Assembly (NCBI GenBank): GCA_977017645.1
Contig: OZ360236.1
Location: forward strand, 50,778,001-50,842,000
Direction of reading: 5' to 3'
From: Torpedo marmorata
Taxonomy: Eukaryota
Length of the DNA: 64,000 nucleotides
Shown here: positions 2,558 to 61,251 of the stretch, piece after piece
Layout of the letters: every line of letters starts with the position of its first letter
Numbering within the stretch: position 1 is the stretch's first letter
Made by a program: the position numbers and the translations under genes
The notes under the pieces: generated by a model
Databases searched by the model: none
Seen by the model: the letters and a program-made list of their open reading frames with translations, nothing else
What the model was told of the DNA's origin: nothing

Positions 2558-2812
2558 TAGCACCAATAGCCTGAATACGACTGGGATTGTCTGATCTCGG
2601 AAGCTAAGCAGGCACAGGACTGGTCAGTACTTGGAGGGGAGATCGTCTAGGAACACCAGGTGCTGCAGGTTTCTGTGAGGGGCGCTGGACAAAGTAGCGA
2701 CCCTCTGTCTGCCTTACGGTAGACAAAAATTAAAGAATTTCATGTATGTTACATTCTAAATGTAGTATTACGTGACAATAATGGAACCTTTACCTTTACC
2801 TTTTACCTTTAC
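2558..2812 (+). mobile_element. 5S rRNA-derived SINE (SINE3-type), copy 1
   Basis: Head gtctgatctcggaagctaagcagg...cagtacttggag...ggtgctg matches vertebrate 5S rRNA internal control region; unrelated body; (ACCTTT)n tail; second copy at 54599-54845. Confidence 0.9.
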
Positions 2813-3904: not shown

Positions 3905-3961
3905 AAAGAAAGAAAGAGACAGAGACAGAAAGAAAGGGAAAAAGAAAGAAAGAAAGAAAGT

Positions 3962-4012
<51 letters not shown>
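3905..4012 (+). repeat. (GAAA)n purine microsatellite
   Basis: Direct reading. Confidence 0.95.
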
Positions 4013-4013
<1 letters not shown>

Positions 4014-4787: not shown

Positions 4788-5023
4788 GGGCGGCACGGTT
4801 AGCGTAGCGGTTAGCGCAATGCTCTTACAGCGCCAGCGACCCGGGTTCATATCCAGGGCTGTCTGTAAGGAGTTTGTACGTTCTCCCCGTGTCTGCGCAG
4901 GTTTCCTATGGGTGCTCCAGTTGCCTCCCACCCTTCAAAACGTACCGGGGGTTGTCGGTTAATTGGGTGTAATTGGGCTACACGGACTCGTGGACTGGAA
5001 GGGCCTGTTACCGTGCTGTATGT
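4788..5023 (+). mobile_element. tRNA-derived V-SINE-like element
   Basis: tRNA-like head with A/B-box-like motifs (ggttagcg...gggttca) plus V-domain-like ggtttcct..gggtgctcc.gtt.cctcccac; further copies at 8209, 29381, 57393. Confidence 0.85.
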
Positions 5024-5545
5024 GTGCTGGTGGAAAATCAAAATGGTAGTTGTACTAACAACCTTTATTCATACACTGTCATTAATAAAGCTGGACGTCC
5101 CAAAGTGCTAAACAGGAGCGTTATCAAACAAAATTAGACTTCAAGCTACACAAGGGGACACAAGTAGATCCATATTCAATGAGGTAAGTTTAAAGAGAAA
5201 ATAAATGGAGACTTACAGGTGAGGAGGTTTAAGGGAAGAAATTCCAAATCTTAGGGTTATGGCAAGTGCAAGTATGACCACGCATGGTGAACTTTTAAAC
5301 ACCTGGATTGGAGCCCAAATATCACTGATGGTTGTGGTCGAAGATGATGGAAATTGGGAGAACCAAGGTCCTGGAGAAAATTTCACACAAGGAGAATTTT
5401 AATTTCAAGGAGATTTTTTAAAAAATAACATTAATTAATAAAATGTGCAAGTTATAATAAAGTGAATTTATATCTTTCAATTCATGGAACAGATCATCCA
5501 TTTTTCTTTAACAAACATTCCATAAGCGACAGCTAAGCAATGATT

Positions 5546-11718: not shown

Positions 11719-13325
11719 AATTTCAGATTTCAGATTTATTGTCAGAGTACATACATAATATCACATACAACCCTGAAATTCTTTCTCCTGTGGGCCAGGC
11801 AGAATTAACACTTATTGATAGTGCAAAAAAACAACTGTACACAATGTACACATGTAAACAAACAAACAAATGAAAACAACTGACTGTGCAATACAGAGAG
11901 GAGAAATAAAAACAAACAATATAGTGCAAAAGGAAGAGTCCTTAAATGAATCTCTGATGGTGCGAGTCTTGTGGCACCTATACCTCTTTCCTGATGGCAG
12001 CAGCGAGAACAGAGTGTGTACTGGGTGGTGTGGGACTTTGATGATTGCTGCTGCTCTCTGATGGCAGCGTTCTCCATAGATGTTCTCGATGGTGGGAAGG
12101 GGTATGCCTGTGATGTTCTGGGCAGTGTCCACTACCTTTTGCAGGGCTTTACAATCAGGGGCATTGGTGTCCCCATACCAGACCGTGATGCAGCCGGTCA
12201 GCACACTTTCCACTACACATCTGTGGAAATTTGCCAGGGTTTCCGATGTCATACCAAACCTCCATAAACTCCTGAGGAAATAGAGGTGCTGATGTGCTTT
12301 CTTCATGATTCCATTAGTGTGTCGGCTCCAGGGAAGATCCTCCGAGATAGTGACTCCCAAGAACTTAAATTTGCTCACTCTCTCCACCTCTGATCCCCCA
12401 ATGATCACTGGATCGTACACCTCTGGCTTTCCCTTCCTGAAGTCAACAATCAGCTCCTTAGTTTTGGTGACATTGAGTGCAAGGTTGTTTTTGTGCACCA
12501 TTCGGCCAAGTTTCCAATCTCCCTCCTGTATGCTGACTCATCGCCTCTTTTATACAACCCACTACTGTGGTATCGTCAACAAATTTGTAGATGGTGTTAT
12601 TGTCGTACCGAGCCACACAGTCATAGGTATAAAGTGAGTAGAGCAGGGGGCTAAGAATACAGTCCTGTGGTGCTCCGGTATTGATGGAGATCGTGCAGGA
12701 GATGCATAATCTCACTGATTGTGGTCTGTAGGTGAGGAAATCAAGGATCCAGTTACACAGTGGGGTGTTGAGTCCCAGGTCTTGGAGTTTGCTGATCAGT
12801 TTTGAGGGGATGATGATTTTAAATGCCGAACTATAGTCGATAAAGACATCTTTGCCATCCAGGTGTTCCAGGGATTTGTGTAGAGCCAGTGAGCTGGCAT
12901 CCGCTGTAGACCTGTTGCGACGATAGGTGAACTGGAATGGATCCATGTCGCCTCTCAGACAGGAGCTGATATGTTTCATCACCAGCCTTTCAAAACACTT
13001 CATCACTGTTGATGTGAATGCCACTGGTCGATAGTCATTTAGGCAGGTTACCACACTCTTCATGAATGACGCTTGTTTGAAACAGGTGGGTAGCACACCC
13101 TGCAGGAGTGAGACGTTGAAGATATCTGTGAATCCGTAAGTTGGTCAGCACAGAGTTTTAATGCTCGGCCGGGTACTCCGTCCGGACCGGATGCTTTCCT
13201 CGGATTCACTCTCCTGAAGGCAGCCTGCAAGTCATCCTTGGATACGGACAGGAGAGGATCATCAGGGGACATCGGGGTGTGCCTTGGTGGTTCCTTCTTG
13301 TTTTTGCGGTCGAATCTGGGTTAGA
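11719..13325 (-). mobile_element. Rex1/Babar LINE, 5'-truncated RT pseudogene
   Basis: ORFs 13060-13272, 12458-13096 and 11812-12501: [51 protein letters not shown]; microsatellite tail. Confidence 0.92.
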
Positions 13326-16040: not shown

Positions 16041-17862
16041 TTAAAGAACAGCTGGTTCACGTGGATCTTTCCTCATGGTTAGCACTGCCAGTCCTCTCAG
16101 GTCACCCTGGAATTAAACTTTAATGTCCTAGTCACTACTATGGTAAGAGAGAAACACGATAGGCTGCAGACGCTGTGATTGTAGTAAAAACACCGAAATG
16201 CTGGAGGAACTCAGCCGGTCTTTTCAGCATCTATAGGAGACAAAGATATATTGCCGACGTTTCGGGCCTGAGCCCTTCTTCAAGGAAAAATCAGAAAGGG
16301 CAGAAGCAGGATATGTCAGAAAGTCTCAGAATTCAAACAATGGGGGAGGAATCCAGACCAACAAAAGGTGTTAATTGGATGTGATAAGGGAGGAGGTAGA
16401 ATTTATTATATCTTTGCGAAAGGAGACAGGGAATGGAGAGATGATGGGGGGGGGGGGAGAAGCAGGGGGTGGGGTTTAACGAAAGCCAGAGAAGTTGATA
16501 TTAATGCCACCCGGTCGGAGGGTGCCCAGTTGGAAGATGAGGTGTTGTTCCTCCAATTTACGGGTGGTCTCAGTCTGGCAGTACATGAGGCCATGGACAG
16601 ACATGTCTGCAAGGGAATGGGATGGAGAATTGAAATGGGTGGCCACTGGGAGATCCACGCTATTGCGGTGGACAGAGCCGAGGTGCTCAACAAAGCGATC
16701 TCCCAGTCTGAGTCCAGTCTCTCCGATGTAGAGGAGACCACAGCGGGAGCACCGGATGCAGTAGACCTCGTTCTGGTCTTCAACCTGCTGTGGACCTTTA
16801 TATTTCCAACTGCCGCTGTGACATCAACCGTATCGACTTCACTACTCCCCTCACTCATTCCAATCTCACCCCCTCGGAACGCCTGGCCCTCCACTCTCTC
16901 CGCACCAATCCGAACCTCACCATCAAACCTGCAAACAAGGGTGGCACTGTTGTGGTCTGGCGCACTATCTGGCCGAAGCCAGACGACAACTCTCAGACAC
17001 CTCCTCTTATTTACCCCTCCAACAGGACCCCACCAAAACTCAAACCACTGTATCGCGCACCATCTCTGAACTCATCACTTCTGGTCACCTCCCTGGCACG
17101 GCCTCCAACCTGATTATTTCCCAACGCCCACCGCCCGTTTCTACCTCCTACCCAAGATCCACAAACCCAGTTTTCCCAGCAGACCCATCGTGTCCACGTG
17201 CTCCTGCCCCACCAAATTGGTCTCTGCTTACCTCAACTCTGTTTTGTCCCCCCTGGTTCAGTCCCACCTCACCTACATCTGGGACACTTCACATGCCCTC
17301 CATCACTTCAACAACTTTCCAGTTCCCTGAACTCGATTGCCTCATATTTACCATGGATATCCAATCCCTATACTACTCCATTCCCCATACTGAAGGCCTC
17401 AAAGCCCTTCGTTTCTTTCTGGAAAATAGAACCTACCAGTCCCCCTCCACCACCACCATCCTCCGGCTGGCAGAACTTGTCCTCACCCTCAATAATTTCT
17501 CCTTTGACTCATCGCACTTTCTCCAGGTTAAAGGGGTAGTCATGGGTACCTGCATGGGCCCCAGCTATGCCTGCCTTTTTGTTGGCTACGTGGAGCAATC
17601 CATGCTACAAGCCTACACAGGCAAGGCCCCTCAACCTTTCCTCCGCTACATCGATGATTACTTTGGTGCTGCCTCATGTACCCATGCTGAGCTCGTTGAC
17701 TTCATCCACTTTGCTGCCAACTTCCACCCCGACCTCAAATTCACTTGGTCCATCTCTAGCATCTCTAACACTCTCCCTTTCCTCAATCTCTCTGTCTCCA
17801 TCTCAGGAGACAAACTCTCGACAGACATCTTCTATAAACCCAACAACTCCCACAGATACCTC

Positions 17863-17944
17863 TTTTTTGAATATTTTATTTAATTTTTTTGATACATGTA
17901 ATAATCCCCAATCCCCTCTCCCCCTTCCCCCCAAACCCACCCCC
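17863..17944 (-). mobile_element. Extremely truncated L1-type 3' tail inside the Penelope RT
   Basis: G-tract, AATAAA and polyA on minus strand; 16-bp TSD ctcccacagatacctc at 17847-17862 and 17945-17960. Confidence 0.8.
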
Positions 17945-21852: not shown

Positions 21853-24800
21853 TAAAAACACAAAATGCTGGAGAAACTCAGCAGGTCAAACAGTGTCCTT
21901 CATGTAGCAAAGGTAGAAATACATAACCGACGTTACAGGCTTGAGCCCTTCATCAAAGTATGAGAAAATGCCAGCAGGCGTCCAAACAAAAGAGTGAGGG
22001 GGGGAAGGGGGGTGGCAAAGGCAGGAGATGATAGGTGGAGAAAGGAGGGAGGGGACAGCAGAAATGAGGGGGAGGAGGGATGGCTGGGTGGGTGGAAGAA
22101 CAGGAAGGACAGGGAAGGGGGGAAGGGAAAGAAAAGGTGAGCAGGTTTAGTGGAAAGCAGAAAAATCAATGTCAATGCCATCTGGCTGGAAAGTGCCCAG
22201 ACGCAAAATAAGATGTTGTTCCTCCAATTTGCAGGTGGTCTGGGTGGGATAGTACATAAGGCCATGGACAGACATGTGAGTGTGGGAGTGTGACTCGGAA
22301 TTGAAATGGTTGGCTACTGGGAGGTCGCTGTTGTTGTGGACGGAGAGGAGGTGCTCAGCGAAGCGATCTCCCAATCTACGACCGGTCTTTCCGATGTAGA
22401 GAATGCCACAAAGGGAGCACCGGATGCAGTAAATAAGTTCTCTGGATGTACAAGTGAAGTGTAGTTTCACTTGGAAGGCCTGTTTGGGGCCCCGGACCAT
22501 GGTGAGGGAGGAGGTGTGGGCACAGGTGTTGCACCTCCTGCGGGCACAGGGGAAGGTACTGGGGGGGAGATTGGTGGGGAGGGATGAGTGTACGAGGGAG
22601 TCTCTGAGGGAACGGTCCGTACGGAAGGCAGAGAGGGGAGGAGAAGGGAAGAGGTGTCTGGTAGTGGGATCCTGTAGTGCCGGAAATTCCGGCGGATAAT
22701 GTGTTGGATGCGGATGCTGGTGGGGTGGGAGGTGAGGATGAGGGGGATTCTATGTTTGTTGCTTCTGGGGGCAGAGGGGGACAGGGCAGATGAGTGGGAA
22801 ATGGAGGAGATGTGGGTGAGGGCTGAGTTGATAGTGGTGGAGGGGAAGCCACGTTTGTGGAAGAAGGCAGACATTTCGGAAGATCTGGACTGGAAGACCT
22901 CATCTTGCGAACAAATGCGGCGGAGATGGAGAAATTGAGAGAAGGGGATGGAATCCTTGCAGGGGACAGGGTGTGAGGATGTGTAGTCAAGGTAGTTGTG
23001 GGAGTTAGAGGGTTTGTAGTATATTTCGTTGGAAAGCTTGTATCCCGAGATGGAGACAGAGAGATCCAGGAAGGGGAGACTGTTATCGGAGATGGACCAG
23101 GTGAGTTTGAGATCAGGGTGGAAGTTGGCCGCGAAGTGGATGAAGTTGACAAGCTCATCGCGGGTGCATGAGGCAGCCCTGATGTAGTCGTCGATATACC
23201 GGAGGAAGAGTTGAGGGTTCTTCCCTGTGTAGGCTTGCAGCATGGATTGCTCCACAAAGCCTACAAACAGGCAGGCATAGCTGGGACCCATGCGGGTACC
23301 CATGGCTACTCCTTTGATTTGGAGGAAGTGGGATGAGTTAAAGGAGAAGTTATTTATTGTGAGGACAAGTTCTGCCAGGCGGAGGAGGGTGGTGGTAGAG
23401 GGTGCCTGGTTGGGTCTTTGGTCCAGGAAGAAGCTAAGTGCTTTGAGACCTTCTGTGTGGGAGATAGAGATATAAAGGGATTGGATGTCCATCGTGAAGA
23501 TGAGGCGGTCCGGTTCGGGGAATCTGAAGTCATTGAGGAGATGGAGGGCATGTGAGGTGTCACGGATGTAGGTGGGGAGGGATTGGACCAGGGGAGAAAA
23601 GATAGAGTCAAAGTAAGATGAAACTTGTTCGGTGGGGCAGGAGCAGGCAGAAACAATGGGTCTGCCCGGATGGTTGGGTTGTGTATCTTGGGTAGAAGGT
23701 AGAAACAGGCAGTTCTGGGGTGCGAGAGAATGAGGTTGGTGGCCGTGGAGGGGAGGTGACCAGAGGTGATGAGGTTGGAGATGGTGTTGGAGACAGTGGC
23801 TTGATGTGCAGTGGTGGGGTCCTGTGGGAGGGGTCGATAGGAGGAGGTGTCTGAGAGCTGTCGACTGGCCTCGGCAAGGTAGAGGTCAGTGCGCCAGACC
23901 ACCACCGCACCACCCTTGTCTGCGGGTTTGATGGTGAGGTTGGGATTGTTGCGGAGAGAGTGGAGGGCAGAGCATTCTGAGGAGGTTTACTCGGAATTGA
24001 AATGGTTGTTGCGGATGGAGATGAGGTGCTCAGTGAAGCGATCTCCCAATCTAGACCGATCTCTCCGATGTAGAGAATGCCACAAAGGGAGCACCGGATG
24101 CAGTAAATAAATTCTCTGGATGTACAAGTGAAGTGTTGCTTCACTTGAAAGGCCTGTTTGGGGCCCTGGACTGTGGTGAGGGAGGACGTGTGGGCGCAAG
24201 TGTTGCACCTCCTGCGGGCACAGGGGAAGGTGCCGGGGGTGCGATGGGTGGGGATGGATGTTTACTCAGAATTGAAATGGTTGGCTACTGGGAGATTGCT
24301 GTTCTCAAGCTCAAAACGTCGGTTTTGAAGAGCTCAAGCCCGAAACGTCGGTTATGTAAGGACTCAAGCCCGAAACGTCAGTTATTTATCTTTACCTTTG
24401 CTCTTTGCCAGCTTGGGACCACCCTGCTTCACTCCAGGCCTAGAACCGTGGAAGGGCGCTGGAGAAATTGTTGATGGCGGCGGTGCGAGTAACTCTCAGC
24501 GGCTCCTCTGGGCTTGTGCATGTTTTATGTTAAGTTGAGAGCCGTGCACAGTCAGCGACCGGTAGGATCGGATCAATGAAGCGTCGAGGAACACCTTGAA
24601 CACAACAATAGCATCGTGTGAGGTCCCAGGGCACTGTTTGACGGACTGGACTGATACTGCAGTAGTAGGCCTTCACTCCTCGGGGTCGAGTGGCGATGGC
24701 AGCCGAGGTGAGGATGCGATGCGAAGGCAGCTGAGGACGGTTCGGAGGATGGTGGCAGTGGAGCTCGGAGGACGGGGTTGAGACCTCTTCCACGCAAGTA

Positions 24801-32600: not shown

Positions 32601-32939
32601 TTCAATGTGTTTTAGTAGCAAGAAGGCAGGGTGTGGGTGAGGAGAGAGTGCTGGGAGTGACCCTCTAATTTTCCCTCCTCTTTTGTGGAGTAGATCCTGG
32701 TCAAAGGGATTTCGCAACTCTAATTAGAAATCAGTGACAGGAAGTTTAAAGTGTGAACGTATTGCCTATCGATCAGTGTACCACGATATTCCTGAGCTTG
32801 AGTGCTTGCCAATTTTGCACACCTAGAGATATGTAGAAAACAAAACCTTTGATCCAGGAACTGCTGGCACCTATTAGAACACATCATCATTTGTCCAGGA
32901 GACTGCAAGGATGTCCACTTCACAGTGTCAATGACTCTT

Positions 32940-33222
32940 TTTAAAAATATTTTTTTAATATTTTATTTAAAATTTTAAATCACACGATAATACATGTTTA
33001 TAAAATACAAAATTACCAGAATACATGTGATATATTTTCACCCTCCCCTCCCTCCCTCCCCCCTCCCTAACCCACCCACCCCTACTACTCTAATAATATA
33101 GAAAGAAAGAAAAAAAAGAATAGAATTTGGAGAATGTCAATCTAAAAAAGAACTATACATTAATTTTATTGTGGAACACAGGTTTGCCAGTCAGACCTGA
33201 TATCAAGAGATCCTCAAATCAT
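32940..33222 (-). mobile_element. L1 3'UTR/polyA tail (D), similar to the 3'UTR of element A
   Basis: Shares gatttga.gatctct...tagattgacattctcc, G-tract and polyA with 41681-41954. Confidence 0.8.
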
Positions 33223-34988
33223 TGCTTCAAGAAATATGTTGCAGGAATGCAACCCTTTTTTAAAAAGTATATTTTATTTGTATTTTTATCAATAACAAAA
33301 ATAATACATCATCAAATATAATATTCGTCTGTTGACTATTATACTAAAAAACAACAACAAAATTACAAACAAAGGAAAACCCACCCACCCAATTCCCCCC
33401 TAAATGAAAGAAAAGAGAGGAATAGAATAAGAAAAGGTTGAAGTATAAAAGGAAAGAAGACGTTGGAGGCTCGTCGCCCACCCCGCAGGCTTAAATTACT
33501 TGGCATACTCGGATTTCTGAAGAGGAAATGGACATAGGTCCTGGAGGCGAGGGGGGGGGCCTGGTTATAGATTTACAGCCATGTGTTGTAAATATGGAGT
33601 CCAAATCTTTAAAAATATATCATATCTATTTCTAAGATTATAGGTAATCTTCTCAAGGGGAACACAATTGTACATTTCCTCATTCCATCTTGTCATACCT
33701 AGATGGGAATCAGACTTCCATGTGACCGCTATACATTTCCTGGCCACCCCCAATGCGATCTTCACAAATTTTATTTGAAATTTTGACAGCCTCATCTTAG
33801 GTCTTACGCCGGAGATATTGCCCAATAGAAATAATTCTGGGCGATGTGGGAACTGAATTTCGGTAATTTGTTCTAAGAGTTTCCCTAAGTCTGTCCAGAA
33901 AGGTTTTACTTTGGGGCATGACCAGGTTAAATGTAAAAACGTTCCTATTTCTTTGCTGCATCTAAAACATTTATCTGATATTTCTGATTTAAATTTATTC
34001 AATTTTTGCGGCGTGAGATTGCACCAGTCTGTATCTCACATTTACTGTGTTTTTCATACTGTCCCGACATAAGTCTGACTCCCATCTCTGTCTAGATCTA
34101 TGTAGCCCCTGTTTAGGGGTTCCTTTTTGTAGTAAAAGATAGGCTGCTGAAATAAACTTCTTTGTGATCCCCTTTCGAATGAAAGTCTCCACTTCAATTT
34201 ATCCCTTAAGTAAGATCTCAGCTGGAAATAGCAGAAGAGTGTATTAATCATAATACCATACTTATTTTTTAATTGTTCAAATGACATAAGTTGTAAAAAA
34301 TTACATTATAATTTATTACAAACATACAAAATGGAAAAGTTAATTGAAAGAACTAAACAAAGATATTATGAGTTAGGGGAAAGAGCACATAAAGTTTTGG
34401 CATGGCAATTAAAAAAAGATCAAGCTTCTAGAACTATAAATGCTATTAGGAAAAAGAATTCTAGGGAAATAACTTATAAAACACGAGAAATAAATGATTC
34501 TTTTAAGGATTATTATTTAAATTTATATAAATCTCAGATTGATCAAGATAACTCTAAAATTAATAGATTTTTATCTAAAATTACATTACCTAAACTAAAT
34601 ATTCAAAGTAGAGAAGCTTTAGATTTACCTTTCTCAATGAGGGAAGTTAATGGTTCTTACTTCCTTAACGAGTGGTAAATCTCCAGGTGATGATGGATTT
34701 CCAGCAGAATTTTATAAAGAGTTTAAAGATTTATTGATACCTCCGTATATGGATGTATTAAATCAAATTACGGAAACCCATTCATTATCGGACACATTTT
34801 TAAATGCAATAATTAGAGTTATACCTAAAAAAGATAGAGATGTATTGAAAACTGAATCATATAGACCTATTTCACTGTTAAATGTAGATTATAAGATAAT
34901 GGCAAAAATTTTAGCAAATAGAATGGCTAATTATTTACTAGATTTAATTCATGTAGATCAAGCTGGTTTTATTAAGAATAGATATTCA

Positions 34989-37264
34989 TTATGTGGCAAT
35001 TTAAACTGAGTGGTTCTTTTACATACAGTATAGTCTCCCTCTGTAAGAGGCATAATTTCACTTTTATCCCAATTTATCTTGTAACCAGAGACTTTTCCAT
35101 ATTCCTCCAGTTTGAAATGTAGTCTTTGCAAAAAAGTCTCAGGCTCTGTCAAGTCTATTAAAACATCATCCGCAAATAGACTAATTTTATGTTGCTCTTG
35201 ACCAACTGTAAATCCCTTAATTGCCAAATCACTTCTAATAGCCTCTGCTAACGGTTCTATAGCTAATACAAATAAAGCTGGTGACAATGGACACCCTTGC
35301 CGACTAGATCTTGTTAAACAAAACGAAGTTGATATTTGTCCATTAGTCACTACTTTGGCTTTTGGAGCATTATATAATGCTTTAATCCAATCTATATAAG
35401 TCTTCCCAAATCCAAATTTCTCCAAAACTTTGAATAAAAAGTCCCATTCCAACCTGTCAAAAGCTTTCTCTGCATCTAATGCCACTGCTACACTTAGTAC
35501 TTTTCTTTTTTGGGCTAAATGAATAATACTAAGTAACCTTGCTACATTGTCAGCTGCTTGTCTTTTTTTTATAAAACCTGTTTGGTCCATATTTACTAAT
35601 TTTGGCAAAAATTTTGTTATCCTATTTGCCAGAATTTTTGCCACAATCTTATAATCTGCGTTCAATAATGAAATTGATCTATATGATGAGGGTTTCAATG
35701 GGTCTCTATCTTTTTTTGGTATTACTGTAATTATTGCAGTGGAAAAAGATTCTGGAAGTGTATGGGTCACTGAAGCTTGCTGTAACATATCCATAAAAAT
35801 AGGAATTAATAATTCCTTGAATTCTTTATAGAACTCTGGTGGAAAACCATCCTCTCCCGGCGCTTTATTACTTTGTAATGAGCTAATTGCTTCCTTTACT
35901 TCCCTCTGCATAAACTGTGTACTTAATTCTAATCGCTCTTGTGTATTTAATCTTGGTAGATTTATCTGTGATAAGTATCCATCAATTTTACTATCGTCTT
36001 GTAGAGATTCTGATTTATATAAATCAGAATAAAAAATTTTTAAAGAATCATTTATTGTTTGAGGTTTATAACTAATAACATCAGTCTCAGTTTTAACTGC
36101 ATTGATTGTTCTTGATACTTGTTCTGTTTTTAATTGCCATGCTAATACTTTGTGTGCACGTTCACCTAACTCATAATATCTTTGCTTAGTTCTTATAATA
36201 GTTTTTTCCGTTCTATAAGTCTGTAACATATTATACTGTAGCTTTTTATTAGTTAATTGTCTACGTTTATCTATAGAACTCCTCTTTTGCAAATCTTTTT
36301 CTAAAATCGTTATCTCTTTTTCTAGTTGATCTATTTCATTCATGTAATCTTTTTTAATTTTTGAAGAATAACTTATAATCTGACCTCTTAAAAATACTTT
36401 TAACGTTTCCCATATTACAAATTTATCAGGCACTGAATTTAAATTTGTTTCACAAAATATTTGAATTTGCCTCCTTATAAAATCACAAAAATCTGTTCTT
36501 TTTAATAATAAAGGATTTAATCTCCATCTGTATACCGATTTCTCTATATCAGGTATAACCACTGTCATCAATAAAGGTGAATGGTCAGACAAAATTCTAG
36601 CTTTATATTCTGCTTCTAAAATTCTATCTTGCATTTGAGCTGAGACTAAAAATAAATCAATTCTAGAATAAGAATCGTGTCTAGTAGAATAAAATGAAAA
36701 ATCTTTATCTCTGCGATGAATTCTCCTCCAGGCATCAATCAAGTTTAAATCATTCATTAATACCAACGTAGCCTTTGCTGCTTTAGTTCTCCTCACACCT
36801 CTTGTAGATTTATCTAAAACCGGGTCTAAGCAGAAGTTGTAATCTCCCCCTATTATAATATTTTCATGCGCTTCCGCTATGTTAAGAAAGGTCTCTTGAA
36901 TAAATTTGTCATCATCCATATTGGGAGCATATATATTCAAAAAAGTCCAAAATTCTGCATATATCTGACAGTGAATCATTACATATCTCCCTGCAGGATC
37001 TGTCACAACATTCTGTATCTTAATTGGAAGATTATTTTTTATTAAAATTGCCACACCCCTTGCCTTACTATTAAATGAAGAAGCCATTACATACCCCACC
37101 CAGTCCCTTTTTAATTTCAGATGCTCTTTCTCTGTTAAATGTGTCTCTTGTAAAAAAGCCACATCAACACCCAATTTTTTAATATATGCTAAAACTCTTT
37201 TCCTCTTAATTGGTTCATTTATCCCATTAATATTAAAATTCAAAAATCTTAATATATTGCTCAT
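34989..37264 (-). pseudogene. L1 ORF2 endonuclease + RT portion (~760 codons, uninterrupted)
   Basis: Starts MSNILRFLNFNING; FLQETH, GGDYN, SDH, QGCPLSP and FADD motifs. Confidence 0.9.
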
Positions 37265-39607
37265 TTTTAATTATATTTCATTCCTGTTAATGTTATCTCT
37301 TCCATCCCAGACCCCTATCTCACTCTCTTTAACTTCTTTCTTCAGTCTCCATTGAGCCAACATGTGTCCCCTCCAGCAATTCACACAGATAAAAAAAAAA
37401 AATACAATTAATGAATACATTCCCCCCTCTCTACAAAAAAGAAAACATAATCTAACTACTTCCCCTCTAGCGCTATTAATATATACAGCGCTACCCCCCC
37501 TCTATTTTACGGGTCGCGACCTTGGCCGCGAAAATACACATGATTGTAGTAGAAATCAAGATCTCATCCTCCTCCCCCCAACCCTCCTGGTATAACATTT
37601 TTAACATAGACATTCTTTTATCATCAGTTTTACCAAATTACAAACTGATATATATCACTCCATTAACAAATTTTAAAAAACATTCATTTTTTAACGATCA
37701 TCCCTAATCAGCGGCAGTTCATTAGCAAATTCCTCTGCTAGAGTACAATCTGTAAAGAAATATCTTGGGGTTCGGACAGATAATAAATTAAAAAATCTAT
37801 ATAAATGGAACTATGTACCATTACTTAACAAGATTAAGGAGGATTTAGAAAAGTGGACTAATTTACCAATTACACTGATAGGAAGAGTTAACTGTATCAA
37901 AATGAATATATTTCCAAGGATACAGTATTTGTATCAGACTATACCTATTTTATTACCACAGGTTTTCTTTCAGGACTTAAATAAACAAGTGCGAAAATTT
38001 TTATGGAAAGGTAAAATGTCAAGAGTTTCAATGGAACGTTTAACATGGAAATATTAATTGGGGGGTTTGCAACTCCCTAATTTTAAGAATTATTACCGAG
38101 CGGCACAAATGCGATTTGTTGCTTCTTTTTTTGAAACTGAAGAAAGACCTGCGTGGGTTGGAATAGAACTAGGAGAAATAGGAGAAAAGGTGCCACAAGA
38201 ATTTATATACAAATGGAATTCAAAACTATTGACAGGTGTTAAAGAAACGCCGTTATTAAAACATTTGATTAATGTTTGGTATAAGGTTAATGATGACATA
38301 GGGTTGAAAGGAAGTATATCACCCAAAGTGCCTTTGATACAGAATAATCTTATACCATTTACAAAAGATAATCAATTTTTAAATACTTGGTCATTAAAAG
38401 GAATAAAGAAGATAGAAGATTGTTATGAAGGAAATCAATTGATGTCATTTATACAATTACGGAATAAATATGGAATACCCAATAATACTCTTTTTTGTTA
38501 TTTTCAACTAAGAGGTTATTTAAGAGAAAAACTAGGTCCAGATTTGTTGTTACAAGATTGTAGTGAGGTAGAAACTCTTATTAGGAAAGGAAATATTAAG
38601 AAATGTACTTCTATAGTGTATTCTTTGCTACAAAGGGGAGCTTTAAAACGAGGACTTCATAAATCTAAACAAAGATGGGAACAAGATCTTAATGTTACAA
38701 TTGATGAAAAAAGGTGGTCGGATTTATGTTTAGATAGTATGACTAATACTGTTAATGTAAGATATAGATTGGTACAATATAACTTTTTACATCAATTATA
38801 TTTTACACCACAAAAATTGAATAAGATAAATTCTACGATATCAAATAAATGTTTTAGATGTGGTGAAGAAGCGGGAACCTTTTTACACTCAACGTGGTCA
38901 TGTTCAAAAGTTTAAGGTTTTTGGATAGAGCTAGGAAATCGGTTAAAACAAATTACAGGTGTTACATTTCCACAGAATCCTGACTTATTTTTATTGGGAA
39001 ATGTGGAAGGAATTAGACCAAAATTGAAGTTATCTACATGGCAATTGAAATTTGTAAAAATTGCATTAGCAGTAGCAAGGAAATGTATAGCAGTAACTTG
39101 GAAATCGGATACAAATTTAAGTATGGATAGATGGAACTCAGAGATGCAGAGTTGTATTCCATTGGAAAGAATAACATATAACATGAGGAATAAATATGGG
39201 GTATTTTTGCAAATTTGGCGTCCATTTATCCAATTATTAGGAATGAATATTTAAATGTGTTGCTCTACATCCTAGACCCTGCTGACTCTCTTAAATTTAA
39301 ACTTAAAGAATGAATACTGTTGAATGTCTCGCATCGAGCCGTGGACCCGTACGGATGGTTTTTTTGATAAATGTCAATGTCTTCTCCTCTTTCTTCTTTT
39401 TTTTCTTTATTTTTAGTTAGGGGAGGAAGTAAGGGATGGGAGGGGTGGAGGGTGGGTTGTTTTAGTGAGGGTGGGTTGAGATGGGGTTAGAATCATGGTA
39501 ATACAAATTTTGTTTGTATTTAATTCATTAATGTCTATCATATATTTTGTACTATTTTGTATTATTGTGAAAAATTTGAAAACTTAAAATAAAATATATT
39601 AAAAAAA
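34989..39607 (+). mobile_element. L1 element B (inner) with 5' inversion
   Basis: 34989-~37758 on minus strand (ORF1 end, spacer, ORF2 up to FKLPHN); ~37758-39607 on plus strand (KYLGVRTD... to polyA); TSD aagaatagatattca at 34974-34988 and 39608-39622. Confidence 0.93.
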
Positions 39608-42600
39608 AAGAATAGATATTCAAAAGATAATATAGCTAGATTAATTAGTTTAATTAATTTACAAAAAAAGAAGGAAGATTTATCATTAGTATTAATGCTA
39701 GACGCCGAAAAGGCTTTTGATAGATTAGAGTGGAATTTTTTATTTAAGGTATTGGAGAAATTTGGTTTTGGAATTACATTTATTAATTGGATTAAAACTA
39801 TATATAAAGAACCATCAGCTAAAGTAGTTACAAATTTCTTCAAGATTTCCTTTGACTCGATCTACTAGACAAGGATGTCCTTTGTCACCAGCGTTATTTA
39901 TTTTGGCGATAGAACCTTTGGCAGAATTAGTTAGAAAAGATCCTAAAATAGTTGGTATTAAAGTTGGAATGGAAGAACATAAAATTAGTTTATTTGCAGA
40001 TGATGTATTGATATATATGACAAAATCTACTACATCTTTAGTACAATTGTCTGCGTTATTGAGAGAATATGGGGAAATATCTGGATATAAAATTAATTCT
40101 GATAAAAGTGAAATTATGGCATTATCACAAGGGGATTATAGTAAATGTAAAGAAATTACACAATTTAAATGGGCAAAGGAAGGAATTAAATATTTGAGAA
40201 TAAGGATTGACACAAAATTGGCTAATTTATATAAATTAAATTATTTACCATTATTTGTGAAAATAAAAAAGGATTTAGAAAATTGGAAAGATTTACCTAT
40301 AACTTTAATGGGAAGAGTAAATTGTATTAAAATGAATGTTTTTCCAAGAATTCAATATCTTATTCAATCAATTCCTTATGAAATTCCTCAAAAGTTTTTC
40401 AAAGATTTAAATTCAATTATTAGAAAATTTTTATGGAAAGGAAAGTTAGCAAGAGTAGGTATGGAAAAATTAACTTGGAATTATGAAATAGGTGGTTTAC
40501 AACTTCCTAATTTCCAAAATTATTATAAAGCAGCTCAATTAAAATTTGTTAATGAATTTTTTGATTCAACTAAATCTTCTGCTTTGATTAAAATAGAACT
40601 AAATAATATAGGAGAAGATTCCAAAGAAGAAGTTATTTATAAATGGGATTCTAAATTAATATCAACAAGAAAGAAAAATTCTCCTATTCTTAAACATTTG
40701 TTAGAAATATGGAATAAGATGGATAAGGAAATAGGAGGAAAAGGATTGATTTCTTCAAGGATGCCTTTATATCAAAATGGACTTATTCCATTTACTATTA
40801 ATAATCAATTATTTAAAATTTGGTTTCAAAAAGGAATTAAGAAAATAAATGATTGTTTTGAAGCTGGGAAATTTATTACTTTTCAAAGAATGAAAGATAA
40901 ATTTAATATATTAGATAATACACTTTTTGCTTATTATCAAATTAGAGCTTTTCTGATTGAGAAATTAGGTTATGCTTTGATTTTACCAAGACAGAATGAA
41001 TTAGAATTATTAGTTACTAAAGGAGATGTAAATAAATTTATTTCTCAAATGTATAAATTGTTTCAGAGGAAAATTCCTAAAGTAGGAATTCATAAATCAA
41101 GATTAAAATGGGAATTAGATTTGAATGTAATAATAGATGAAAATCATTAGAAAGAATTATGTAAATTAAGTATGACGAAGATTATTAACGTTAGATATAG
41201 ATTAGTACAATACCATTTTTTTCATCAATTATATTTAACACCTAAAAAACTAAAGAAATTTAATTCGACATTATCAGGTTTATGTTTTAGATGTAATAAA
41301 GAGGAAGGTTCTTTTGTACATTCTACATGGTTTTGTCCAAAAGTTTATGATTTCTGGTTGAAAGTTAAAAAAATTTTAGATAAGGTATTTAAGATTACAT
41401 TTCCAATGGATCCTATGATATTTTTGTTTGGAGATATTAGAAAATTTAGTATTAAGATGAAATTAAATATGTATCAAATAGAATTTCTGCGAATTGCTTT
41501 AGCTGTTTCAAAGAAATGTATTGCTATTACTTGGAAATCTGATCTCGATTTAGGGTTAGAAAGATGGCATGCAGAACTTCGTTCATGTATACCACTTGAA
41601 AAAATTACTTATAACTTACGGAATAAATATCATTTCTTTTTAAAAATATGGAGCCCATATATGAAAGCTGTTGGCTTAAGGATTTGAAGATCTCTGGACA
41701 TCGGATATACTGGCTACCTAACCTCCATAATAGAATTAGTTTATAGATGTATTTATTAGATTGACATTCTCCTTACCTTATCCTTTTCTTTTTCTTCTTT
41801 TTTTAAATTATTTTATTAGATTAGTGGGGTTGGGAGGGTTGGGGAGGGGAGGGAGGGAGGGGGGGGTGAAAATGTATCACAAGTATTTGATAATTTTATA
41901 TTTTATTTTATGTATTTTGTGATTTAAAATTTTTAAATAAAATAATAAAAAAACATGACATAAGTTGTCCCTGCTCATAGCAATCCTCGACACATCTGAT
42001 CCCTTTCCGGGACCAGGCGTCCAGGATCTTATTATCCATTGTAAAAGGTATACACCTATTTTGAGCCAGGTGCGTATTTGGAGATAACCTCCCCTTATTC
42101 CCAATTTGATCATTTATTTTATACCAGGTATCAATTATATGTTTCAACAGGGGGGTTTCTTTCACACCAGATATTAATTTTTTATCCATTTGTATATAGT
42201 CTTTTGCTATCTTCTCTCCCACCTTATGCAGTTCCATCTTTACCCAGGAAGGCTTGTCTTCCCCTTCAAAGAAGGAGGTGACAAATTTCATTTGGGCTGC
42301 CCAATAATATTTTTTGAAATCTGGAAGTTGTAAACCTCCCAGTTCATATCTCCATGTTAATTTTTCCGTGGAGACTCTGGCTACCTTACCTCTCCAAATG
42401 AACTTCCTGATATATTTATTTAATTCTTGAAAGAACCCTCGAGGCAATGGTATAGGTAGTGTTTGGAAAAGATATTGGATCCGTGGCAATATATTCATTT
42501 TTATACAATTGACCCTGCCAATAAGTGTTATTGGCAGTGCCGTCCATCTGTTAAGATCCTCTTCAGCTTTTCTAAGCAAGGGGAAGTAATTTAACTTATA

Positions 42601-44999
42601 CAAATCTTGTAAGTTGTTATTTGTTTTAATGCCTAAATATTTTATCCCATTTGCCGGCCACTTAAAATTTAAATTCCTTTGGTATTGAGTATAATCTCCA
42701 CCTGTAAGTGGCATAATTTCACTTTTGTCCCAATTTATCTTATAACCGGAAATTTTCCCATAATCTTCCAATTTTAAGTGCAATTTTTCTAATGAAACTG
42801 CTGCTTCTGTCAGGTATATCAGTACATCATCCGCAAATAAGTTAATTTTGTGCTCTTCCTGGTTAACCCTGAATTCCTTAATGTCTGGATCTCGCCAAAT
42901 AGCTTCTGCTAACGGTTCTATAACCAAAATAAAAAGAGCTGGAGACAGTTGACAGCCTTGCCTGGTAGATCTGGATAGTGGGAATGCTGAGGAAATTTGT
43001 CCATTAGTCACAACTCTAGCTTGGGGCTTATTATATAAAGCCTTAATCCAGTTTATAAAATTCTGTCCAAGTCCAAATCGATCCAGCACTTTAAATAAAA
43101 AATCCCACTCCACTCTATCAAAAGCTTTTTCTGCATCCAGGGCCACAGCGACACCTTGATACCCTCTTGATTGTGCCAGATGTATTATACTAAGCAATCT
43201 GCTTACATTATCTACTATTTGTCTTTTTCGTATAAAGCCTGTTTGGTCCATATTTATCAATTTTGGCAAAAAAACTGCCAGTCTGTTTGCCAAAGCTTTT
43301 GCAATGATCTTATAGTCTGAATTTAATAATGAAATAGGTCTATAAGAAGACGGCTTTAATGGATCCCTATCTTTTTTGGGTATCACTGTAATTATTGCTG
43401 TTGAGAATGATTCTGGGAGGGTATGTGTCTCGACCGCTTGATCCAACACCTCCATAAGTAGTGGTATCAAAAGATCTTTAAATTCATTGTAAAATTCAGG
43501 TGGAAATCCATCCTCCCCCAGAGATTTATTAATTTGCAATGAACCCAGTGCCCCCTCCATCTCTACTTGAGTAAAGGGGGCATTGAGCTCCCTCTGTTCT
43601 TCTAAATCTAGATTTGGAAGATCCAATTGTGACAGGAATCCTTCAATTTCACTAATATTCCTTTGAGATTCTGATTCATATAGTCTAGTGTAAAATTGTT
43701 TAAAGGCCTCATTAATATCCTGTGGTTTATAGGAAATCCTGTCTGTTTCCATTTTGATCGCATTAATCGTTCTTGAGACCTGTTCTGTTTTCAACTGCCA
43801 TGCTAAGACCTTTTGGGCTCTTTCCCCTAGCTCATAGTATTTTTGTTTAGTTCTGGTTATCATTTTCTCCATTTTATATGTTTGTAATGTATTATACTTG
43901 AGTTTTTTATTAATTAATTTTCTACGTTTTTCCTCTGAGCCTGACTTTTGAAGGTCTTTTTCCAAATGAGATATCTCGTGTTCTAATTCATCCACCTCCC
44001 TTGTATATTCCTTTTTCATCTTTGTAGTGTAACTGATTATTTGTCCTTGCAAATATGCTTTTAAAGTATCCCAGATAATAAATTTATTTGTAGTAGAAGT
44101 ACAGTTGGTCTCACAGAACGTTGTAATTCCTTTTCTCATAAAATTATGAAACTCCTGTCTTCTCAACAGCCCTGAATTTAATCTCCATCTATACACCGTC
44201 TTTTGTTTATCTGGCATTGTAATTTTTAATATCAGAGGTGATAGTAGTCTTGCTTTATATTCAGCTGCCACAATTCTACTCTGTAAATGAACCGATATCA
44301 AAAATAAATCTATCCTGGAGTATGAATCATGTCTGCATGAATAAAAAGAATAGTCCCTTTCCCTTGGATGGAGTCTTCTCCAGGCATCCATTAAATTCAG
44401 CTCCTTCATTAACTGCAAAGTAGCTTTAGCTGCTTTCGTCCTTGTGATTGTTCTTCCTGACTTATCTAGAACCGGATCCAGACAAAAATTAAAGTCTCCA
44501 CCCACTATAATATTTTGCTGTGCATCAGCCAATTTCAAAAATGTTTCATGTATAAATTTCTCATCATCCGTGTTGGGAGCATACAAATTCATCAGGGTCC
44601 AGGGCTTTGAATATATCTGACAGTGAACCATTATATACCCACCTGAAGGGTCTGCAATTATGTCTTGCGCTTTAATTGGAACATTTTCCCCTATTAAAAT
44701 TGCTACTCCCCTTGCTTTTGAGTTAAATGAAGATGCTATGACCTGACCCACCCATCCTCTCTTCAATTTTTGGTGTTCTTTTTCTGTTAAGTGAGTTTCT
44801 TGAAGGAAGGCCAGGAGTGCCAATGACTCTTGACCGACTACCATCCAATCCCATCAGTAATGTCCATCTATCTGGCTTCCGAATGGTGATGGAAGGAGAG
44901 GCACTGTTGCAGGACACTCAGTGTCAAAGCTCGTAGAACCCCTTTAAAGAAAGCGTCGGTCAAGATGTGATGAGCTTCATAACATCAGGACAAATGATT

Positions 45000-46848: not shown

Positions 46849-46916
46849 TAGCTTGGATGGAGAAATTTTGTGCAGAGGTGAAAAATCTCTGATTGGGGTC
46901 ACAATTACATGTGTGG

Positions 46917-47788
46917 ATAAGATGGGAATCAGACTTAGGTATAGTAATTGATGAAGAATTATGGTCAGAATTGTGTCAGAATAGTATGTTAATTACTATA
47001 AATGTACGTTATAAATTGGTCTCCTATAATTTTCTTCATCAATTATATTTGACTCCACAGAAATTACATAAATTTAAACCAGAATTATCAGAGATGTGTT
47101 TTAGATGTGGAACGGAGTTTGGTTCTTTTTTATATTCGACAAGGATGTGCTGTAAGTTGAGGCAATTTTGGCATAATCTCTGTGACATCTTATCTAAAGT
47201 TATTGGAGTTACTCTAATTTTAGATCCAGAAATATGCCTTTTTGGAAATTTTACTACTATTAAGGACACCTTAACCAGATATCAAATTATATTTTTGGGA
47301 ATAGCTTTTTGTGTGGCTAGAAAGTGTTTAATGACAACTTGGAAGTCAGATTCCCCATTGTCTATTGATAGATAGACCTCAGAAATAAATAGTTGTATTC
47401 CATTGGAGAAAATTACGTATAACATTAAAAACAAACAGGTTATTTTTTATAAATTTTGACAACTTTATTTAGATTATTTGGGGTCAGGATAAATTAAATC
47501 AAAGAAGATTTGTTATTAATTTGTTTTGGGTTCTTTCACGCGATAAGCCCGGTTGCCGGGAAGCCTTGGAGTTTTTCTTTCTTTTATATATTTGAAATTA
47601 GTAATTATATAAACATTGTCGACCATTTGTTTTGTTTAGTTTTTTTTTCTTTGGGGGGGAGGTTTGGGGTAATTGTTTTTTTTAATTATATATGTTACTT
47701 TTATTGTATTACTATATAATGTGATATCTGTTTTTGAAGTATTTTGTTTCATTGTTTGTTAAAAATTAAAATAAAATATTTAAAAAAA
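46917..47788 (+). mobile_element. L1 3' fragment
   Basis: RWESDLG..NVRYKL..CFRC..TWKS; polyA; degenerate TSD acaattaca...gtgg at 46901-46916 and 47789-47804. Confidence 0.85.
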
Positions 47789-48124
47789 ACAATTACACAA
47801 GTGGTCTAGAAATTAGATCACATGGTGCCTCCTCTTTTGTTCGCATTATTACCTAATTCCAATAAAAATTTCAATCGCCAAGTAAAATCACAGATTCGCT
47901 GTAAGTTTCACGAGAGCCGTGACTTCCCTTTTGCATGCTCTGCTTCTCTGATCTGCAAATATGAAACAACTTCCATGTTGGACATTACTGTCTTGAATTT
48001 GGAACATGTATGTGAGACCCGTGGATGGTACTGGTTACCAATAAAGGTGGCATCCTTCACTGCACTTGTGAGACCAAATTTGTCATTACTGTACTTAAAC
48101 ATGACATGTTGCACCAAGTCCAAT

Positions 48125-58689: not shown

Positions 58690-61251
58690 CTTACAACAAA
58701 CACATGATCGAAGAGCATTTTAAATCCTTGGACCCTCGCCGCATGTGGCAGGGCATACAGATCATCACAGACTATAAATTATCTAGTATTGTGCCTTCTT
58801 CTAGCTGTGCCTCCCTCTCTGAGGAGCTTAACTATTTCTATGCTCGCTTTGACCAAGAGAACAAGGAGGTCGCTTTCAAGGCGGATCTTCTACCTGATGA
58901 ACTGCCTCTCTCACTTTCCATCTCTGATGTATGGGCCACCTTGAGTAGGGTGAATGTACGGAAGGCAGCTGGTCCGGATGGCATACCTGGCCGTGTGCTT
59001 AGAGCCTGTGCAGAACAATTGGCCGGGGTCTTTACGGACATTTTCAATCTGTCCCTAGCCCAGGCAATTGTTCCAACGAGCTTCAAGATTGCTACCATCG
59101 TGCCAGTGCTGAAGCGTTCTACCGTTATGAGTTTGAATTACTACCATCCAGTTGCACTCACCCCCATCATCGCAAAGTGTTTTGAGAGGCTGGTCATATC
59201 ACATTTGAAATTCTGTTTGCCTGCCACCATGAACTCTCATCAATTTGCCTACCATTTCAAGAGCACTTCACTCTGCTTTGATTCACTTGGACAGCTCTAA
59301 CTCCTATGTCAGAATGCTGTTCATTGACTTTAGCTCGGCTTTCAACACTGTGATTCCCTCCAAGCTGATCACCAAACTTCGTCTGCTTGGTATCAGCTCA
59401 TCCCTTTGTAATTAGATTTTGGACTTTCTAACTAATGGACCCCAATCTGTTAAGTTAGGCAATCTTTTCTCTTCCAGGGTTGTGTGTTGAGCCCTCTTCT
59501 GTATTCCCTTTTTACCTCCGACTGCGTTCCTGTACTTAGTACAAATTCGATAATCAATTTCGCAGATGACACCACGGTGGTTGGCCTGATCAGAAGGGAC
59601 GATGAAACGGCCTATAGGGATGAGGTTCAGCACCTGGCATTGTGGTGTGCTGATAACAACTTGACACTCAACACTCAGAAGACCAAGGAGATCATTGTAG
59701 ACTTCAGGCGTGCTGGAAGCCACACTCACGTCCCTATTTACATCAATGGAGTTGTGGTGGAACGTTTATCGAGCTTTAAATTTCTTGGTGTCCATATTTC
59801 CGAAGATCTCACCTGGTCCCTGAATACTTCAATTCTGATTAAAAAGGCACAACAGCGTCTTTATTTTCTGCGAAGCATGAGGAAGGTACACCTCTGTCCC
59901 AGGATATTGCTGGATTTCTATAGATGTACCATTGAGAGCGTACTCACATATGGCATCTCGGTGTGGTATGGCAATTGTCTTTCACAAGACCGCAAAGCAC
60001 TCCAGCGAGTGGTGAAAACTGCCCAGTGGATTATTGGCATCCAATTGCCCACCATCGAGAACATCTATAGGCAACGGTGTCTGGGCAGGGCGAGGAACAT
60101 CATCAAGGATGCATCACACCCAAATCACGGACTTTTTACTCTTCTCCCATCGGGCAGACGCTACAGGAACCTTCGCTCGCGTACCAGCAGGCTCAAGAAG
60201 AGCTTTTTTTACGAGGCTGTGACCCTGCTGAACATTGAATCACAGCGCTGAGTGGTACTGCACTCATATTGTAATATCAGTACTTTTATAATAGTTCGTT
60301 TGTTGAATAGGTTTGTTGTTGGTTTTAATTGCACGTTTATTTGTGATGTATATAGCACTATTTTTTTTTAACATCCGGTTAGACGCTAATTGTATCTCTT
60401 TGCTGTGGCCAGGCATAATTCCAATGCCATCTACAAGTTTGCCGATGACACCACAGTTGTCAGCAGAATCACAAACGGCAATGAGGAAGCGGACAGGAAG
60501 GAGATAGATCAGCTCGTTGAATGGTGTAACGACAACAACCTTGAGCTCAACGTCAGCAAAACCGAGGAGATGATTGTGGACTTCAGGAGGAAGTCAGAGG
60601 AGCACGACCCAGTCCTCATCGAGGGCTCAGTAGTGGAGAGGGTCAAGAACTTCAAATTCCTGGGTGTCAACATCTCCGAGGATCTGTCCTGGAGCCTCCA
60701 TGTTGATGCATCACAAAGAAGGCTCGCCAGCGGCTATACTTTGTGAGGTGTCTGAGGAGATTCTGTATGTCACCAAAGACTCTCGTAAACTTCTACAGGT
60801 GTACCGTGGAGAGCTTTCTGGCTGGTTGCATCACTGCCTGGTATGGAGACGCCAACTCTCAGGACAAGAATAAACTCAAGAGGGTTGTTAACTCGGCCTG
60901 TAACATCACAGGCACCAGACTTCACTCCATCGAGGACATCTACATGAGGCGGTGTCTTACAAAAGCAGCCTCCATCCTCAAAGACCCCCACCACCCAGGC
61001 CATGCTCTCTTCACTCTGCTTCCATCAGGAAAAAGGTACAGGAGCCTCAAAGACACTGCCTTACTTTTCGTGCACTATTATTTATATTTTTTTATAGTAA
61101 TGTCGTAAGATGGTTATAATACGAATGTTTGCACTATGATGCTGCTGCAAAACACCGAATTTCATGACTTGTTTACGACAATAAATTCTGATTCTGATTC
61201 TGGTTCTGTTTTACACAGGTACAATGACAATAAAGTGAATCTAATCTAATC
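58690..61251 (+). mobile_element. Rex1/Babar RT fragment (58690-60402 plus tail 61201-61251)
   Basis: ORFs 58659-59300 and 59484-60251 (KAAGPDGIPG, FADDTT, LLPSGRRYR); tgacaataaa + (AATCT)n tail. Confidence 0.9.
60403..61200 (+). mobile_element. Second Rex1 subfamily copy nested in the 3'UTR of the previous one
   Basis: IYKFADDTT...LLPSGKRYR; (TTCTGA)n tail; host tail resumes at 61201. Confidence 0.85.

What the first reader, a model, noticed from the sequence alone, without database searches (positions are those of the whole stretch)
32924..44831. Three-level L1-in-L1-in-L1 nest with every TSD preserved
Seen: element C (minus) is split mid-ORF2 (GQLMS|FEQLK) by A (plus) with a 14-bp TSD at 34281/41955; A is split (GFIKNRYS|KDNIA) by B with a 15-bp TSD at 34974/39608. 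The three copies are related but diverged, and two retain long open frames, fixing the order C, then A, then B. Inference: several L1 lineages were recently co-active and may preferentially hit AT-rich L1 ORF2 sequence.
Basis: partly seen in the sequence, partly recalled or inferred. Interest (0 to 1): 0.7.

Follow-up and report, generated by a model that had tools for sequence, protein, structure and literature searches.

The report
Three nested L1 copies, untargeted
Three copies of the L1 jumping gene sit one inside another in what is likely a ray genome, most likely by chance because L1 is so abundant there; the innermost copy has its front half flipped, and the outermost carries a short piece of DNA that matches an intron on another chromosome.

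Summary
The nest is real. All three target-site duplications are at the stated places (14, 15 and 16 nt), and the pieces of A and C are colinear on unbroken genomic copies, the gap equal to the TSD: order C, A, B. The proposed preference for L1 ORF2 is not supported: 12 of 160 family copies have L1 behind their tail (7.5%), against 16% of random positions. L1 covers about 14% of sampled DNA (some 340,000 copies), so roughly two thousand three-level nests are expected (inferred). B is a 5'-inverted, twin-priming-type insertion (8 of 160 other copies are inverted; the scan noted such inversions before on other DNA of this genome). C's TSD encloses a 316-nt tail, 35 nt of unique DNA plus a fourth family's 3' UTR, that maps to a CCDC157 intron on another chromosome, where no source L1 is assembled; a second tail found elsewhere also lacks its source. 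Likely 3' transduction from unfixed source elements; a template switch is not excluded. Junctions were not checked against reads. Known kinds of event, a clean example in a likely ray.

The parts
32924..32939 (.). TSD of C, copy at its 3' end (16 nt, one mismatch to the other copy)
32940..33220 (-). Tail of C, part 2: 3' UTR and poly(A) end of a fourth L1 family (D, sister to A); matches a short D insertion at G000:C11:160524390-160524693
33221..33255 (-). Tail of C, part 1: 35 nt of unique DNA found only here and in a CCDC157 intron on C11, directly in front of the D insertion
33256..34280 (-). C, 3' part: end of ORF2 (private deletions of 31, 36 and 23 nt, frame broken), 3' UTR and C's own short A-tail
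34281..34294 (.). TSD of A, 5' copy (14 nt)
34295..34973 (+). A, 5' part: 5'-truncated ORF2 (one frameshift)
34974..34988 (.). TSD of B, 5' copy (15 nt); its last bases are complementary to the L1 RNA at the inversion point
34989..37757 (-). B, inverted 5' segment: last 21 codons of ORF1, spacer, ORF2 endonuclease and RT to about residue 756 (770-codon open frame)
37758..39607 (+). B, forward 3' segment: ORF2 from about residue 760 to the end (2 stops), 3' UTR, A-tail; starts 7 nt after the inverted segment ends on family copies
39608..39622 (.). TSD of B, 3' copy
39623..41954 (+). A, 3' part: rest of ORF2 (8-nt deletion, 1 stop), 3' UTR, A-tail
41955..41968 (.). TSD of A, 3' copy
41969..44815 (-). 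C, 5' part: 5'-truncated ORF2, endonuclease and RT, open throughout (9-nt in-frame deletion)
44816..44831 (.). TSD of C, copy at its 5' end

Best explanation
Three truncated L1 copies of three different families sit one inside another, each bounded by its own target-site duplication, and likely arose by three independent, untargeted target-primed insertions in a genome where L1 is abundant enough to make such nests common; the inner copy is 5'-inverted, likely by twin priming, and the outer copy carries a 3' tail matching a CCDC157 intron on another chromosome, likely by read-through from a source L1 that is not in this assembly. Step 1 (shown: structure; inferred: mechanism): C inserted at TC/AAGA; its RNA likely came from a C-family element standing in the CCDC157 intron, ran through its own weak end, copied 35 nt of intron and stopped at the poly(A) signal of a short D-family 3' UTR just downstream. 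Step 2 (shown): A inserted antisense into C's ORF2. Step 3 (shown: structure; inferred: mechanism): B inserted at TT/AAGA in A's ORF2; the second DNA end likely primed inside the same RNA, giving the flipped 5' segment. All three copies lack a 5' end and a whole ORF1 and so are predicted to be unable to move.
For: TSDs and colinearity. TSD lengths typical of these families: a TSD was called for 73 of 111 copies with the 5' junction in view, mode 15-16 nt; of 54 clean ones the two bases before the nick are TC 20, TT 13, TG 5. No excess of nesting: 12 of 160 against 16-31% expected. L1 covers 14.1% of 600 kb of random DNA (CI 9.5-18.8), 33 L1 3' ends in it, about 340,000 genome-wide; one TSD-bounded L1-in-L1 nest (L151) and two more split L1s with L1 inside (L164, L141) turned up in those 60 random stretches. 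Twin priming: one TSD round both segments, 7-nt loss at the breakpoint, TSD end complementary to the RNA there (2 nt exact, 6 of 7 with one bulge), 2-nt overlap at the inversion junction; 8 of 160 other copies inverted. Tail: the 34-nt probe of the unique part occurs at 2 places in the genome at up to 2 mismatches; tail and donor differ at 6 of 262 positions in the D part and none in the unique part, in line with C's age; the donor junction reads TG/AAAG, a nick context seen in 5 of 54 TSDs; a second case (L008) maps to one donor (L309, 96% against 82-86% for the other 38 family matches) with junction TC/AGAT and only one A to pair.
Against: No source element stands at either donor locus in this assembly (2 of 2), and no sibling copy carries C's tail, so read-through is inferred, not seen. 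Contigs of four runs did not settle whether an insertion allele exists at the C11 site. The D part of the tail is no closer to the donor (6 differences) than to the nearest other D copies (4-6): the link rests on the 35 unique bases. The family copies are top-scoring search hits, not a random draw; my L1 library misses distant L1-like families; today's L1 content overstates the targets available when C and D inserted. The nest junctions were not checked against reads.
Confidence: 0.8

Rival explanations
1. These L1 families prefer to insert into AT-rich L1 ORF2.
For: L1 DNA is AT-rich (GC 0.29 against 0.45 for the rest) and holds about 31% of TT/AAAA-type sites though 14% of the DNA. A and B copies nest more often than C and D copies (12 of 103 against 0 of 57, p=0.005). 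In human, L1-in-L1 insertions are numerous and biased to sense (PMC2836564, passages).
Against: Observed nesting is at or below every expectation: 7.5% overall, 11.7% for A and B, against 16.3% (uniform), 16.5% (motif from these TSDs) and 31% (stricter motifs). With both flanks in view 4 of 54 had L1 on both sides and 2 more on one side.
Confidence: 0.07
2. C's tail came by template switching, not read-through: reverse transcription began on a host RNA (CCDC157 intron RNA polyadenylated at the D 3' UTR), then jumped to the poly(A) end of a C-family RNA. No source element ever stood at C11.
For: Both donors lack a source element. D lies in sense about 180 nt behind a CCDC157 exon, a gene described as highly expressed in testes from Drosophila to mammals (PMC10955179, passage), so such an RNA could exist in the germ line. 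The tail starts with three A that could pair with poly(A). Template switching is a proposed route to L1 chimeras (10.1101/2025.02.02.635956, passages).
Against: Both donor junctions have endonuclease-like context (TG/AAAG, TC/AGAT) and the second offers one A only. C's internal tail looks like the short, T-interrupted tails of genomic copies. Sources missing from a reference are known in human (51 of 268 L1 transductions in Table 4 of PMC9311842). The chimeras described in the passages read have the cellular RNA 5' of L1, the reverse of this layout.
Confidence: 0.18
3. The nest is an assembly error that merged separate L1 loci.
For: All pieces belong to families with thousands of candidate matches; no reads were laid on the junctions.
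Against: Three TSD pairs, gaps equal to TSD length, junction complementarity at B, and an order that agrees with divergence are not what a mis-join makes; each piece has one 100% match in the assembly.
Confidence: 0.03

Closest known systems
Nested L1-in-L1 insertions in the human genome (Levy, Schwartz and Ast 2010, PMC2836564; abstract, outline and passages read)
   Same: L1 inserted into older L1 with a TSD; 21,559 sense and 9,899 antisense cases in its Table 3; nests give relative age.
   Different: Here three levels, three families about 70% identical yet all young, in a likely ray; no excess of nesting in my sample, whereas that paper reports over-representation for many insertion types.
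5'-inverted (twin-primed) L1 insertions (model of Ostertag and Kazazian 2001, seen only as a citation; described in PMC2912911 and PMC4245944, passages read)
   Same: Inverted 5' segment, single 15-nt TSD, microhomology at the 5' junction and at the inversion junction, small loss at the breakpoint.
   Different: Non-mammalian host. PMC4245944 saw inversions almost only with human L1 in human cells, none with L1 in chicken DT40 cells. At least 8 of 160 copies here are inverted (a lower bound, as the search favours colinear copies).
L1 3' transduction, including from sources absent from the reference (PMC9311842, passages read)
   Same: Element with its own 3' end, then unique DNA from another chromosome (7-997 nt in that study; 316 nt here), then poly(A) and the TSD.
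   Different: The source element is not seen at the donor in this assembly, so membership is not established; the tail ends at the poly(A) signal of another L1 family's 3' UTR, in both cases found.
Fish-type L1 diversity (Boissinot and Sookdeo 2016, PMC5381506, passages read)
   Same: Several divergent L1 families active in one genome; nearest named ORF2 relatives are teleost and Polypterus L1 proteins (36-52% identity).
   Different: That review gives non-mammalian L1 as hundreds to thousands of copies and under 0.5% of the genome; here about 14% and some 340,000 copies, a mammal-like load.

Membership tests
L1 clade of non-LTR retrotransposons | ORF2 with N-terminal APE-type endonuclease, RT and C-terminal cysteine-rich region | tested here: met
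   Pfam RVT_1 and Exo_endo_phos in C and B; zf-RVT (below its cut-off) in A and C; the natural 1257-aa B-family ORF2 matches human L1 ORF2p over residues 51-1246, E 6e-166, against 6e-20 for R2.
L1 clade of non-LTR retrotransposons | Upstream ORF1 of L1 type | tested here: met
   In family copies: PF17490 above cut-off in the C-family ORF1 (L138), no L1 family hit for the B-family ORF1, which is 40% identical to it. The window holds only the last 21 codons of B's ORF1.
L1 clade of non-LTR retrotransposons | 3' UTR with poly(A) signal and A-tail, 5' truncation, variable TSD at an AT-rich nick site | tested here: met
5'-inverted (twin-primed) L1 insertion | Inverted 5' segment and forward 3' segment of one element within one TSD, adjacent on the RNA | tested here: met
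   7-nt gap on uninterrupted copies, identical in 6 of 6 copies printed
5'-inverted (twin-primed) L1 insertion | Microhomology at the 5' junction and at the inversion junction | tested here: met
   2 nt exact (6 of 7 with a bulge) and 2 nt; short enough that chance is not excluded for either alone
L1 3' transduction | Extra sequence between the element's own 3' end and the TSD, ending in a poly(A) signal, matching one locus elsewhere | tested here: met
L1 3' transduction | A source L1 directly upstream of the donor sequence | tested here: not met
   No C-family DNA upstream at C11 in 30 kb fetched; no B-family DNA at the second donor. Holds for this assembly only.
L1 3' transduction | Source present on another haplotype or in another individual | tested here: inconclusive
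   Contigs of four runs barely cover the site; no piece bridges it
Target-specific or repeat-targeting LINE | Insertions concentrated in one target sequence above expectation | tested here: not met
   12 of 160 in L1, at different places and in both orientations (6 antisense, 4 sense, 2 by protein match only). Targets other than L1 were not classified.

The most novel reading that the evidence does not exclude
In this genome L1 reverse transcriptase starts on host or dead-element RNAs that end in another L1's 3' UTR and poly(A), then jumps to the poly(A) end of its own RNA, making L1-first, host-RNA-last chimeras that mimic 3' transductions but have no source element; here the primer RNA is intronic RNA of the testis gene CCDC157. 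Both tails traced so far lack a source at the donor.
Probability: 0.15. Interest if true: 0.6.

Novelty: new member of a known kind. Interest (0 to 1): 0.3.

Why it matters
The nest itself is ordinary and shows no targeting. It is a tidy teaching case that holds four known L1 behaviours in 12 kb: nesting, 5' truncation, twin-primed inversion and a transduction-like tail. Of wider use: this likely ray genome combines a mammal-like L1 load (about 14%) with fish-like family diversity, shows that 5' inversion is regular outside mammals, and its tails point to source loci that are empty in the assembly. If those sources were never fixed, tails would map lost or rare active elements and test directly whether selection removes full-length L1 from germ-line genes in non-mammalian vertebrates.

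Tried and rejected
Reads: the nest junctions were not examined with reads, which leaves misassembly and heterozygosity of A or B open. Contigs of four runs laid on the C11 donor gave no piece bridging the junction; two runs had no cover; a contig of another organism covers the exon only. The run search found one holder at 0.44 of the words and small shares otherwise; no habitat or identity is drawn from it. A fourth nesting level: C's right flank is unique for 166 nt, then a short repeat; no empty-site paralogue was found. Clustering of three deletions in C next to A's insertion: none shared with 30 family copies, but 24 such deletions occur in those copies (p about 0.05), so not treated as special. 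Reciprocal nests as proof of co-activity: none found. An independent three-level nest among 85 fetched 10-kb stretches: none recognised by my rough tiling, only two-level ones; TSD look-ups failed for 4 of 6 split elements. The Atlas search with the donor exon gave only sub-0.9 hits; the sequence search named it. The first TSD script timed out and was rewritten; 19 of its 73 TSD calls were set aside as AT-only, too short, too long or far from the tail before the motif count. Ichiyanagi 2007 (host-dependent L1 pathways) is not held. Searches for L1 share in ray genomes and passages of PMC10620051 and PMC10468316 gave no figure; their supplements were not read and may hold one, so the 14% is not claimed as new. 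Searches for non-mammalian twin priming and non-mammalian transduction listed no such study; most subscription papers are not covered.
Full report
Observation. C has a 16-nt TSD with one mismatch at 32924/44816. Repeats of this length also arise by chance here, so I tested position instead of excising: each piece was aligned on its own to uninterrupted copies from the same genome (searches, longer stretches). The two parts of A follow each other with a gap of 15 nt and the two parts of C with a gap of 14 nt, the TSD lengths. The order C, A, B follows.

What the elements are. ORF2 has endonuclease, RT and a C-terminal zinc-binding region; a natural unbroken B-family ORF2 matches human L1 ORF2p end to end (E 6e-166); the nearest named relatives of C's ORF2 are fish L1 proteins. 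A tree of 35 rows over a 580-nt ORF2 stretch puts the window copies in three starred families, with a fourth (D) sister to A (bootstrap not fully settled). The host is likely a ray: an exon at the donor locus is 88% identical to Narcine CCDC157, 83% to Pristis, 80% to Mobula. Among 29 copies each, family pairwise distance is 1.3% (B), 3.8% (A), 3.6% (C); the window copies carry 0.54%, 0.34% and 0.88% private substitutions. C is older than A (p=0.02); A and B, and C and B, are not separable. All three are 5'-truncated; A has two frameshifts and a stop, B two stops in its forward part, C three deletions in its 3' part. The long frames reflect youth, not function (inference).

B is inverted. 34989-37757 lies on the minus strand and 37758-39607 on the plus strand within one TSD. 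On family copies the two segments are 7 nt apart; the TSD's last bases are complementary to those 7 nt (2 exact, 6 of 7 with one bulge), and 2 nt overlap at the inner junction. This is the twin-priming layout described in PMC2912911 (passages). PMC4245944 (passages) saw inversions almost only with human L1 in human cells. Here 8 of 160 other copies are inverted. The scan noted twin-primed L1 in this genome before (e1-9941528, e1-9926575).

C carries a tail. After C's own 3' end come 35 nt of unique DNA and the 3' UTR and A-tail of a D-family element, then C's TSD. The unique part occurs at two places in the genome, here and at G000:C11:160524393. There a short D insertion with its own TSD lies in sense about 180 nt behind a CCDC157 exon, and no C-family DNA stands upstream in 30 kb. 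A second case turned up among the 111 copies with the 5' junction in view: L008, a B copy with a 430-nt tail inside a 16-nt TSD; its donor L309 (96%, next best 86%) also has no source element. Both donor junctions fit the nick context of these families (TG/AAAG and TC/AGAT; TC 20, TT 13, TG 5 of 54). I read this as 3' read-through from sources that are polymorphic or lost (about 0.75), as known for non-reference human sources (PMC9311842, passages and Table 4); template switching from a host RNA remains possible (about 0.18). CCDC157 is described as testis-expressed (PMC10955179, passage; PMC6370830, listing only), which suits either route; its expression in this animal was not tested. Contigs of four runs did not decide it.

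Is there a preference for L1? I took the A, B, C and D copies returned. Left out before counting: the window's own copies, the donor locus, 6 duplicates, the 29 loci (flank too short) and 7 A copies whose 3' end was not located, leaving 160 of 167. As background, 60 random 10-kb stretches were drawn from 36 large contigs covering about 3.3 of 6.2 Gb. With one pipeline for both, 12 of 160 copies have L1 directly behind the tail (B 5 of 52, A 7 of 51, C 0 of 29, D 0 of 28), against 195 of 1200 random positions (16.3%, cluster CI 9.9-22.9) and 25-31% of positions at AT-rich motifs. With the motif read off these TSDs the share in L1 is 16.5%. So nesting is at or below expectation (p=0.002 against 16.3%, p=0.36 against the lower CI bound). 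Limits: top-scoring hits are not a random draw, distant L1-like families are missed on both sides, and present L1 content overstates past targets. L1 covers 14.1% of the random DNA with 33 3' ends, about 340,000 copies genome-wide (CI 230,000-470,000). Multiplying by 0.075 twice gives about 1,900 three-level nests (600-5,500 over the CI of the rate); this is my arithmetic, not a count, and I did not recognise another three-level nest in 85 stretches.

Comparison. L1-in-L1 nesting is catalogued in human in tens of thousands (PMC2836564, abstract and passages). Several families active side by side is the rule in fish and reptiles, but at under 0.5% of the genome according to PMC5381506 (passages); the load here is far higher. 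A preprint on retrocopies (10.64898/2026.06.26.734816, passages) gives cartilaginous fishes an intermediate retrocopy share. I found no figure for L1 in ray genomes in two searches and two papers' passages; supplements were not read.

Verdict. Observation confirmed, order confirmed, targeting not supported, strict co-activity not shown. The locus is a new example of known events; the inversion, the source-less tails and the high L1 load are the parts worth a genome-wide look. Misassembly is unlikely but was not tested with reads.

Noticed in passing
60 random stretches L141-L200: L1 covers about 14% of the sampled DNA, some 340,000 copies genome-wide, from several young families: a mammal-like load with fish-like diversity.
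   Followed up: partly
L008 (G000:C30, about 207284264-207284839) and L309 (G000:C76:19716463-19716892): B-family copy with a 430-nt tail from the 3' end of a distant L1-like family inside a 16-nt TSD; the donor has no source element.
   Followed up: yes
L010, L023, L241, L044, L286, L098, L099, L109: 5'-inverted copies in the A, B and C families, with gaps of 2-693 nt at the breakpoint.
   Followed up: partly
L202:1181-1810 (G000:C11): Short D-family 3' UTR with its own 17-nt TSD, in sense just behind a CCDC157 exon; could cause intronic polyadenylation. An A-family element interrupted by another L1 lies 0.7 kb further on (L291, L292).
   Followed up: partly
L151:4439-9066, L164:168-6118, L141:2433-6565, L103: Further two-level L1-in-L1 nests; L151 has a 17-nt TSD; L103 looks like A inside C, as in the window.
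   Followed up: partly
window 33565-34280, 39835, 44241 and C-family copies: Small deletions (5-68 nt), several between short direct repeats, are common in these L1 copies.
   Followed up: partly
window about 46890-47790 (+): A further, older 5'-truncated L1 3' end (67-74% to the library) with its own A-tail, 2 kb from the nest.
   Followed up: no
window 11812-13144, 16822-17883, 22467-23885, 59454-60251: Other retroelement remains: RT frames, two with an ALKBH8_N Pfam hit; the 13.8-24.4 kb region holds many direct and inverted repeats that look Penelope-like (label recalled, not tested).
   Followed up: no
L112, L024, L243, L123: Family copies with large internal gaps or non-L1 insertions (about 550 nt missing in L112; 2.2 kb inserted in L123).
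   Followed up: no
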